A stretch of 64,000 nt of DNA from Eledone cirrhosa (Eukaryota), in NCBI GenBank assembly GCA_964016885.1, contig OZ024741.1, positions 122,078,001 through 122,142,000 of the forward strand. The letters are read 5' to 3'. Shown in pieces: positions 57,154 to 57,587 of this stretch. The position numbers and the translations under genes were made by a program. The notes beneath the pieces are model-generated. The model was not told the origin of the DNA and did not search any database. It saw only the letters and a list, made by a program, of their open reading frames with translations. Numbering within the stretch: position 1 is the stretch's first letter; the number at the start of each line of letters is the position of its first letter.

Positions 57154-57587
57154 ATTTAATTTCGTTTCGTTATTTGTTTTTATCGTCTCCGTTGAACCGG
57201 TACGTACTCACGCTCTATGCAAATTAGTCTGCCCACTACTAATTTTCATAGAAAAAGCATATAACGATATGTGCTTTTACGATTCTCTAGAGAGGCCGGA
57301 AGATAGGTAAATATTGCTGATGAGATGTAACAACATCGAAACTAGTTCAATGTTCCTTGCCTGGCTTTCTGGAGAATAGAGGAAAGGTGTTTCTTCAAAA
57401 ACCAGTATGACTCTAAAAACCGGTTTGTCTGTGTGTTTACATACAGAATAGCTGGACACTCACAGTAAAGTGACCAGTGAAAAACTCGGTACATCTACAT
57501 ATGTATACGTGTGTGTATTCATATGCATACTAGTATTTCAGTATACATATGTGGATGTACATTTTTAACTTAATTTTTTAACTTAAT
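57154..57587 (+). mobile_element. Dispersed, diverged near-monomer of HHR family A in (TA)n
   Basis: Colinear with the 469-bp unit. HHR at 57310-57354. Ends at the same catttttaacttaat as the array, followed by a short duplication. Confidence 0.9.

What the first reader, a model, noticed from the sequence alone, without database searches (positions are those of the whole stretch)
57154..57587. Diverged monomer shows compensatory changes that preserve the ribozyme fold
Relative to the array unit, stem II changes from gTtgt/acaAc to gAtgt/acaTc, a double compensatory change. The stem I 3' strand changes from caatatt to caatgtt (G-U pair kept). The extended stem changes from tccagaaag to tctagagag (two G-U pairs kept). 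The CUGAUGA, GAAA and CUAG cores are unchanged. The copy ends at the same catttttaacttaat|(TA)n position as the array, 26 kb away. This implies selection on RNA structure and a preferred priming site.
Basis: seen in the sequence. Interest (0 to 1): 0.7.

Follow-up and report, generated by a model that had tools for sequence, protein, structure and literature searches.

The report
Retrozyme family keeping its RNA fold
This stretch is an ordinary copy of a repeat with a hammerhead-ribozyme motif found thousands of times in this animal genome; its expanded lineages keep their predicted RNA base pairs, its copies end at two fixed points as Penelope-type jumping genes do, and part of its A-to-G change likely comes from RNA editing copied back into DNA.

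Summary
It belongs to a 466-nt subfamily of a young type I hammerhead retrozyme family (6,240 core matches genome-wide; 967 with its stem II). The stem II swap is one event inherited from a source lineage, and the monomer's state is probably the older one. Selection on the fold is supported family-wide: six fully compensatory pairs, and shared changes keep pairs in 35 of 41 cases against 93 of 273 for single-unit changes. There are two preferred 3' ends, not one (289 of 305 arm ends), about 70 nt apart, usually one at each end of a head-to-head insertion in (TA)n (103 of 119). This is the known Penelope 'tail'. The stem I G-U change is not a subfamily mark: it arose about seven times, within a strand-specific A>G excess (51:15 against 57:51) that avoids a 5' G, as ADAR editing does. 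No RNA data were available. The scan noted two-armed retrozymes and ADAR marks before, in other families of this genome.

The parts
57154..57587 (+). 5'-truncated single-arm copy (about 0.9 unit) of the 466-nt subfamily; starts inside the tail hairpin (unit position about 39) and ends at site B
57310..57354 (+). type I hammerhead motif: stem I 57310-16/57348-54, core 57317-23, stem II 57324-28/57333-37, GAAA 57338-41, palindromic 2-bp stem III 57341-46, predicted cleavage after U57347 (GUU triplet)
   Evidence: sequence; Rfam Hammerhead_HH9 E=1.7e-5, 29.6 bits, below its gathering score of 52
57282..57377 (+). long hairpin that extends stem I; folds better than shuffles on the + strand only (z -3.98 against -0.73)
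57562..57587 (+). private 13-nt tandem duplication at the 3' end (site B), inferred to be a restart of reverse transcription
   Evidence: a repeated end motif was found in 3 of 354 arm ends
55940..57153 (.). (TA)n-rich tract left of the monomer; no second, inverted arm visible
57588..58256 (.). (TA)n-rich tract right of the monomer
24525..25464 (-). inverted arm of the 469-nt array (2 units); outer 3' end at site A (unit position 68) against (AT)n
25460..31401 (+). forward arm of the array (12.6 units); outer 3' end at site B (unit position 463); 5-nt overlap with the inverted arm
22441..23090 (+). copy of sister family B (hammerhead at 22767, same stem III palindrome, GUA triplet, different paired stems); further copies at 10297-11380 and 18769-19539

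Best explanation
The monomer is one truncated insertion of a young, non-coding hammerhead repeat family (a non-LTR retrozyme) that is likely copied by a Penelope-like reverse transcriptase and GIY-YIG endonuclease, and whose expanded subfamilies keep the predicted RNA fold. Shown: thousands of dispersed copies in subfamilies; pair-keeping changes on large clades; two fixed 3' ends about 70 nt apart, one per arm of head-to-head insertions in (TA)n; short target duplications where the flank can be read; an A>G excess on the ribozyme strand among inherited changes. Inferred: tandem transcripts self-cleave (probably as dimers, through the palindromic stem III) into 466-469-nt monomers that are ligated into circles. 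A Penelope-type enzyme cuts both strands of an AT-rich target and starts reverse transcription at two internal sites, one from each DNA end; it reads past the cleavage site, and the two cDNAs join head to head by microhomology. Lineages whose RNA loses its fold rarely expand. ADAR editing of the paired RNA likely supplies part of the A>G changes, including the stem I G-U in this monomer (about 55% for this last step).
For: Copy number: 6,240 exact core matches, control 0; 967 with the monomer's stem II; 13 with other letters at that pair, of which 4 are the two half-way states and 5 are U-G. Covariation: six column pairs switch between Watson-Crick types, with 1-8 one-sided rows among about 200 insertions. 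Internal-branch changes keep pairs in 35 of 41 cases against 93 of 273 for single-unit changes (P=5e-10, pair list fixed beforehand). With the outgroup added: 57 of 69 against 107 of 310, and without A>G 30 of 42 against 73 of 276. Across families A and B, 6 of 17 hammerhead pairs change on both sides; 3 of 500 shuffles reach this (7 sequences). Ends: 289 of 305 arm ends fall in 16 of 469 positions, 266 of these against TA; 103 of 119 complete two-arm insertions have one end of each kind; a position-ordered subset gives 42 of 44 ends and 14 of 16 insertions. PMC11167929 shows a Penelope-like protein cutting and extending both strands and starting at two internal sites that bound the tail. Read-through: 85 of 109 arms run past the first cleavage site and 3 stop at it. 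Editing: young inherited A>G:T>C 51:15 against 57:51 for single-unit changes (P=0.001); C>T:G>A shows no such excess (7:18); a 5' G neighbour in 1 of 51; column 111 (UAG) changed 9 times and column 237 7 times. RT plus GIY-YIG frames of 938 and 1,096 aa and adenosine-deaminase genes are present in the genome.
Against: No transcript, cleavage, circle or editing was observed. No autonomous partner shares clear sequence with the unit in the 44 GIY-YIG loci compared. Young inherited changes other than A>G keep pairs no better than single-unit changes (9 of 25 and 4 of 11); the signal rests on clades over 10 tips (19 of 22) and on about 40 events. Some broken pairs did expand: 382/443 in 44, 386/439 in 36 and 75/89 in 33 of 178 insertions. 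The core is untouched on internal branches (0 of 111) but the single-unit rate is only 12 of 526, and part of the sample was picked by the core pattern. Edited A columns are not significantly more often paired (22 of 88 against 6 of 42, P=0.18). The two arms were closer to each other than to any other insertion in only 26 of 105 cases (45 ties, 34 worse), so 'one molecule for both arms' is not shown. The window array has a 4-unit period, so long arrays also grew as DNA. In PMC11167929 uncleaved linear RNA was the main substrate in vitro. Pair 77/87 was added after seeing the data.
Confidence: 0.8

Rival explanations
1. One reading: this copy diverged on its own from the array type under selection for the ribozyme fold, and the family has one priming site.
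For: The changes are real, keep pairs, and are unlikely under random placement (P about 0.01). The monomer and the array's right end share site B.
Against: 967 units share its stem II. Only 2 substitutions separate it from its nearest sampled relative. The outgroup subfamily and family B carry the same A..U pair, so the array lineage is probably the one that changed. A second end site is at least as common (156 against 133).
Confidence: 0.05
2. Paired changes come from DNA-level processes (hairpin-templated correction, gene conversion, clonal linkage), not from selection on an RNA, and the units are a satellite moved as DNA.
For: The unit is full of near-perfect hairpins on both strands (circular fold z -9.5 on +, -7.8 on -). 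Any two subfamily marks are linked, so the 967:4 ratio records a single event. The array shows DNA-level duplication.
Against: G-U tolerance is strand-specific. One-sided intermediates persist in clades instead of being corrected. Fixed 3' ends, variable 5' ends, inversions and target duplications are marks of reverse transcription.
Confidence: 0.1
3. The A>G excess comes from biased errors of the reverse transcriptase or RNA polymerase, from transcription-coupled repair at donor loci, or from selection letting G-U pass, and not from ADAR.
For: No RNA evidence for editing; no dense hyper-edited copy (at most 6 rare A>G per insertion); enrichment in paired positions is not significant. Donors were sampled incompletely (208 insertions of roughly 2,000 or more).
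Against: A pure G-U filter predicts a C>T excess too, and none is seen (7:18). The 5' G depletion (1 of 51) and the repeated UAG and UAU sites match the ADAR preference described in PMC5663115.
Confidence: 0.4
4. The template is a linear multimeric transcript of a donor array, not a circle.
For: PMC11167929 found unprocessed RNA to be the main substrate in vitro. Read-through of the cleavage site fits an uncleaved multimer equally well. 5' ends cluster in the stem I hairpin region (20 against 9.1 expected; window chosen afterwards).
Against: New A>G changes are all-or-none across the units of an insertion, often in both arms (17 of 27). If each unit were changed on its own at the same rate, about 73 extra single-unit A>G would be expected; 57 A>G against 51 T>C are seen.
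Confidence: 0.35

Closest known systems
Metazoan non-LTR retrozymes (Cervera and de la Pena 2020, PMC7229834, passages read; Li, Clavereau and Pollet 2026, bioRxiv 10.64898/2026.07.22.740005, parts 1-3 of 5 read)
   Same: Non-coding tandem units with one type I hammerhead each, low GC, monomers to multimers, short helix III, proposed dependence on Penelope-like elements.
   Different: The unit (466-469 nt) is above the 170-400 nt given in the 2020 abstract, though within the 51-972 bp of the 2026 preprint. Two-armed insertions with two fixed ends and an A>G strand bias are not described in the parts I read; the 2020 paper only names RNA editing as one possible cause of circle heterogeneity. 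Expression and cleavage were not tested here. Supplements were not seen.
Penelope-like elements: tail, inverted 5'-truncated copy and internal initiation (Craig et al. 2021, PMC8557442, passages; Frangieh et al. 2024, PMC11167929, parts 1-2 of 4)
   Same: Inverted 5'-truncated copy, a tail at one end only, AT-rich or microsatellite targets, two internal start sites.
   Different: No ORF; the tail is about 70 nt rather than 30-40; the pairing of one end of each kind is close to obligatory (103 of 119); no partner element identified.
Metazoan and Penelope-associated type I hammerheads (Cervera and de la Pena 2014, PMC4209133, passages)
   Same: [quoted passage not shown]
   Different: Here pair-keeping is measured on a tree against a within-insertion baseline and covers hairpins outside the ribozyme; the main subfamilies have a GUU triplet and the older one GUC.
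ADAR-edited RNA written into DNA by L1 (bioRxiv 2024, PMC11702581, passage)
   Same: A-to-I marks in a paired RNA fixed by reverse transcription.
   Different: That case is 3 of 235 insertions in cultured human cells, with clustered edits; here the marks are sparse, inherited, statistical and not confirmed on RNA.

Membership tests
Type I hammerhead ribozyme | CUGANGA and GAAA core, NUH triplet, three stems with stem I open | tested here: met
   triplets GUU, GUC and GUA in the subfamilies and family B
Type I hammerhead ribozyme | Match to an Rfam hammerhead model at its gathering score | tested here: not met
   none in the window at gathering score; HH9 29.6 bits against 52, E=1.7e-5
Type I hammerhead ribozyme | Covariation in stems I and II | tested here: met
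   6 of 17 pairs change on both sides across 7 sequences of families A and B
Type I hammerhead ribozyme | Self-cleavage | not testable with these tools
   needs in vitro transcription; the free fold lies 1.5 kcal/mol below the forced hammerhead fold
Non-LTR retrozyme | Tandem units of a few hundred nt, one type I hammerhead per unit, GC under 50% | tested here: met
   the monomer itself is under one unit
Non-LTR retrozyme | No protein-coding capacity | tested here: met
   longest stop-to-stop frame 69 aa over three array units
Non-LTR retrozyme | Dispersed copies, with target duplications where readable | tested here: met
   direct repeats of 6 nt or more in 15 of 24 insertions whose flank is not pure TA, out of 128 complete ones (the script's lengths run into the element)
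Non-LTR retrozyme | Expression as linear and circular monomer RNA | not testable with these tools
   no RNA holder listed
Non-autonomous Penelope-like element | Inverted 5'-truncated copy and a tail at one end only | tested here: met
   124 of 181 segments are two-armed; 103 of 119 complete ones have one end of each kind
Non-autonomous Penelope-like element | Sequence shared with the terminal repeat of an autonomous element | tested here: inconclusive
   no clear match in 44 GIY-YIG loci out of 10,597 first-look candidates; only a 14-15-nt antisense match to one family's 3' end
ADAR-edited retroelement | A>G excess on the RNA strand with 5' G depletion | tested here: met
ADAR-edited retroelement | Changes confined to double-stranded regions or clustered | tested here: inconclusive
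   22 of 88 paired against 6 of 42 unpaired A columns, P=0.18
ADAR-edited retroelement | A-to-I seen in RNA against matched DNA | not testable with these tools
   no RNA run

The most novel reading that the evidence does not exclude
The host's ADAR is a main mutator of a circular ribozyme parasite. Single edited circles are copied round into DNA, so each edit appears in every unit and both arms, and A>G steps open the route from A-U through G-U to G-C (268/277, 346/359) or close A-C mismatches (265/280). RNA editing would then drive the compensatory evolution of the RNA fold, and the genome would hold a tree-ordered record of germline editing and of a circular template.
Probability: 0.4. Interest if true: 0.7.

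Novelty: new member of a known kind. Interest (0 to 1): 0.45.

Why it matters
The monomer itself is ordinary, and compensatory changes in Penelope-associated hammerheads are published. The family is useful as a test system. It gives two exact start sites, a likely circular template and named columns where editing is predicted, so the proposed but unproven retrozyme cycle (cleavage, circle, Penelope-driven insertion) can be tested directly. It also shows that kept G-U pairs in such repeats cannot be read as selection without checking for a strand-specific A>G bias.

Tried and rejected
Rfam at gathering score found nothing; the miRNA-family hits at 57480-57570 are far below their cut-offs and reflect a generic hairpin. 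No RNA holder was listed; this is no evidence either way. Contigs of four coded runs, three organisms by label, hold the family with the same polymorphisms and added no new covariation. One search used a mis-indexed structure and its numbers are void; one search is the correct count. The U.U state at stem II is not a clean intermediate: both loci also hold intact units. A pile-up of 5' ends exactly at the cleavage site was not found (4 against 2.1 expected, P=0.16; 8 against 10.6 in the whole-unit-biased set). The arm-identity test for a single template was inconclusive. Reverse-strand counts are inflated by repeated matches at one site and were not used. The search for an autonomous partner by nucleotide similarity failed. 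Midpoint rooting gave the wrong direction for stem II; outgroup rooting is preferred, though mosaic haplotypes make deep directions uncertain. Literature searches: Penelope-like with tail, inverted and microsatellite terms; ADAR with retrotransposed copies; retrozyme with editing and A-to-I (2 papers, listing only, neither on this by title and abstract start); octopus with Penelope and hammerhead; retrozyme with compensatory and subfamilies (off-topic). None showed a paper on editing-driven compensatory change in retrozymes; the library lacks most subscription papers. PMC5680766 and PMC2873906 (passages) added only background.

Full report
OBSERVATION. The region 57154-57587 lies in a (TA)n tract and matches the unit of the array at 24525-31401 at 94%. 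The motif reads as a type I hammerhead: stem I 57310-16/57348-54, CUGAUGA, a 5-bp stem II, GAAA, a 2-bp stem III inside the palindrome ACUAGU, and a GUU triplet. Rfam gives HH9 at E=1.7e-5, below its gathering score. The 93-nt region folds better than shuffles on the + strand only (z -3.98 against -0.73). Two further changes in the hairpin were not mentioned, and the 3' end has a private 13-nt duplication and an extra C. Unit positions below count from window 25766.

THE MONOMER IS A SUBFAMILY MEMBER. The genome (G000, 3.0 Gb) holds dozens of dispersed loci 99% identical to it, with a 466-nt period. The core pattern has 6,240 exact matches, control 0. Of these, 967 carry the monomer's stem II, and 13 carry other letters at that pair, 4 of them the half-way states. 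The nearest sampled relative differs by 2 substitutions, A237G in stem I and C279T. An older subfamily (85-87% identical, GUC triplet) and sister family B have the monomer's A..U pair, so the array lineage probably made the change. The stem II swap is one inherited event. The monomer has one hammerhead and less than one unit, so it is probably a dead-end copy (inference).

SELECTION ON THE FOLD. I mapped units from 178 and then 208 insertions onto one array unit, leaving out columns near indels and rows with under 330 columns. The sample came from four similarity searches, pattern lists and junction lists, so it is not random. With pairs fixed from the circular fold of the array unit, changes on internal branches keep the pair in 35 of 41 cases, and changes seen in a single unit of a multi-unit insertion keep it in 93 of 273 (P=5e-10). 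With the outgroup and five pairs added by hand the figures are 57 of 69 and 107 of 310, and without A>G 30 of 42 and 73 of 276. Six pairs switch between Watson-Crick types: 210/221, 265/280, 268/277, 345/360, 346/359 and 77/87, the last noticed after the fact. The signal sits in clades over 10 tips (19 of 22 without A>G); young changes show none (9 of 25 and 4 of 11). This is what selection on transposition success predicts. Three broken pairs did expand. Single-unit changes include assembly errors, which still serve as an unselected baseline. Between families A and B, 6 of 17 hammerhead pairs change on both sides (7 sequences, related, so not a probability).

ENDS. Of 305 arm ends seen whole in 181 segments, 156 lie at unit positions 64-69 (site A), 133 at 460-469 (site B) and 16 elsewhere; 266 of the 289 abut TA repeats. 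Of 119 complete head-to-head insertions, 103 have one end of each kind, 2 are A/A, 2 are B/B and 12 have one other end. A position-ordered subset agrees (42 of 44 ends; 14 of 16 insertions). Forward-strand junction counts are 1,177 for site A and 809 for site B, so roughly 2,350 and 1,600 in all (my doubling). The arms overlap by 1 nt or more in 79 of 119. Direct repeats flank 15 of 24 insertions with a readable flank. Craig et al. (PMC8557442, passages) describe the inverted 5'-truncated copy and the one-sided tail of Penelope-like elements. Frangieh et al. (PMC11167929, parts 1-2 of 4) show cutting and extension of both strands and two internal start sites bounding the tail. The 70 nt between sites B and A fit that tail. 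5' ends vary; 85 of 109 arms pass the first cleavage site and 3 stop at it (one duplicated locus was counted twice).

A>G BIAS. Changes shared by all units of an insertion or by small clades are 51 A>G to 15 T>C on the ribozyme strand, against 57 to 51 for single-unit changes (P=0.001). C>T shows no excess over G>A (7:18). The 5' neighbour is G in 1 of 51 and C or G in 8 of 51, against 46 of 130 A positions (P=0.011). Columns 111, 237, 177, 34, 108 and 190 changed 4-9 times each. A tree-free count agrees more weakly (29 of 130 A columns against 14 of 121 T columns, P=0.03), and enrichment in stems is not significant. PMC5663115 (passages) gives 5' G depletion as the ADAR signature, and PMC5192505 (passages) the A:C mismatch preference. 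Adenosine-deaminase domain genes are present (ADAR, ADAD and ADAT were not told apart). The stem I change is in 2 of 32 sampled members of the monomer's subfamily. Because new A>G changes appear in all units and often both arms (17 of 27), and single units show no excess where about 73 extra would be expected, a monomeric, probably circular template is favoured. A linear multimer from an already homogeneous donor is not excluded.

PARTNER. A GIY-YIG search gave 10,597 first-look candidates. Ten long frames were scanned: nine hit RT, eight GIY-YIG, and several have a cysteine cluster before the endonuclease, as PMC8557442 describes for the Neptune and Nematis clades. One family has its own hammerhead with a palindromic stem III and ends in (TA)n. 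None shares clear sequence with the unit, so the partner is unidentified.

EARLIER NOTES. After my own tests, the scan's notes showed two-armed retrozymes with two fixed ends in 310-, 311- and 422-nt families of this genome, and ADAR-like marks in other elements. A look-up by this sequence found nothing. These are unchecked AI notes and are not counted as support. Their label 'cephalopod' was not tested here.

VERDICT. A new member of a known kind: a non-LTR retrozyme with Penelope-type ends (0.8). The editing step is the most novel part and is unproven. Interest 0.45.

Noticed in passing
window 10297-11380, 18769-19539, 22441-23090: Sister family B: same stem III palindrome and a similar tail, different paired stems, GUA triplet; copies about 83% alike; two of the three are two-armed.
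   Followed up: partly
window 58259-58700 and 61101-61326: Inverted pair of 226 nt at 99.6% with a CTGATGA..GAAA motif (58383 on -, 61260 on +) that did not pass my canonical stem test; it frames a 2.4-kb simple-repeat-rich stretch and is probably another Penelope-type end.
   Followed up: no
window 54397: A further hammerhead-like motif on the + strand, from an unrelated family.
   Followed up: no
window 25460-31401: Four-unit higher-order period: one substitution in every fourth unit and two 476-nt units, so the array also grew by DNA duplication or came from a tetramer template.
   Followed up: partly
L093 and L042, 5' junctions: Family A sequence appears joined to family B sequence, suggesting template switches between the two RNAs.
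   Followed up: no
L217, L218, L226, 3' end of a Neptune-type element: A 14-15-nt exact antisense match to the 5' arm of the unit's stem I hairpin lies at this element's end in 3 of 6 hammerhead-bearing ends checked; it may be chance.
   Followed up: partly
L214:4309-7122 (-), L216:1775-5062 (+): Stop-free RT plus GIY-YIG frames of 938 and 1,096 aa, candidates for recently active Penelope-like elements.
   Followed up: partly
L258-L287, L117: Several arrays on different contigs have units 100% identical over 468 nt, pointing to very recent spread of one variant.
   Followed up: no
unit positions 24-40 and 222-260: 5' truncation points cluster at two hairpins (14 against 4.0 and 20 against 9.1 expected of 109; windows chosen afterwards); the monomer's own 5' end is in the first.
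   Followed up: partly
runs X5 and X6: Two other coded organisms hold the family at 90-99% with the same polymorphisms.
   Followed up: partly
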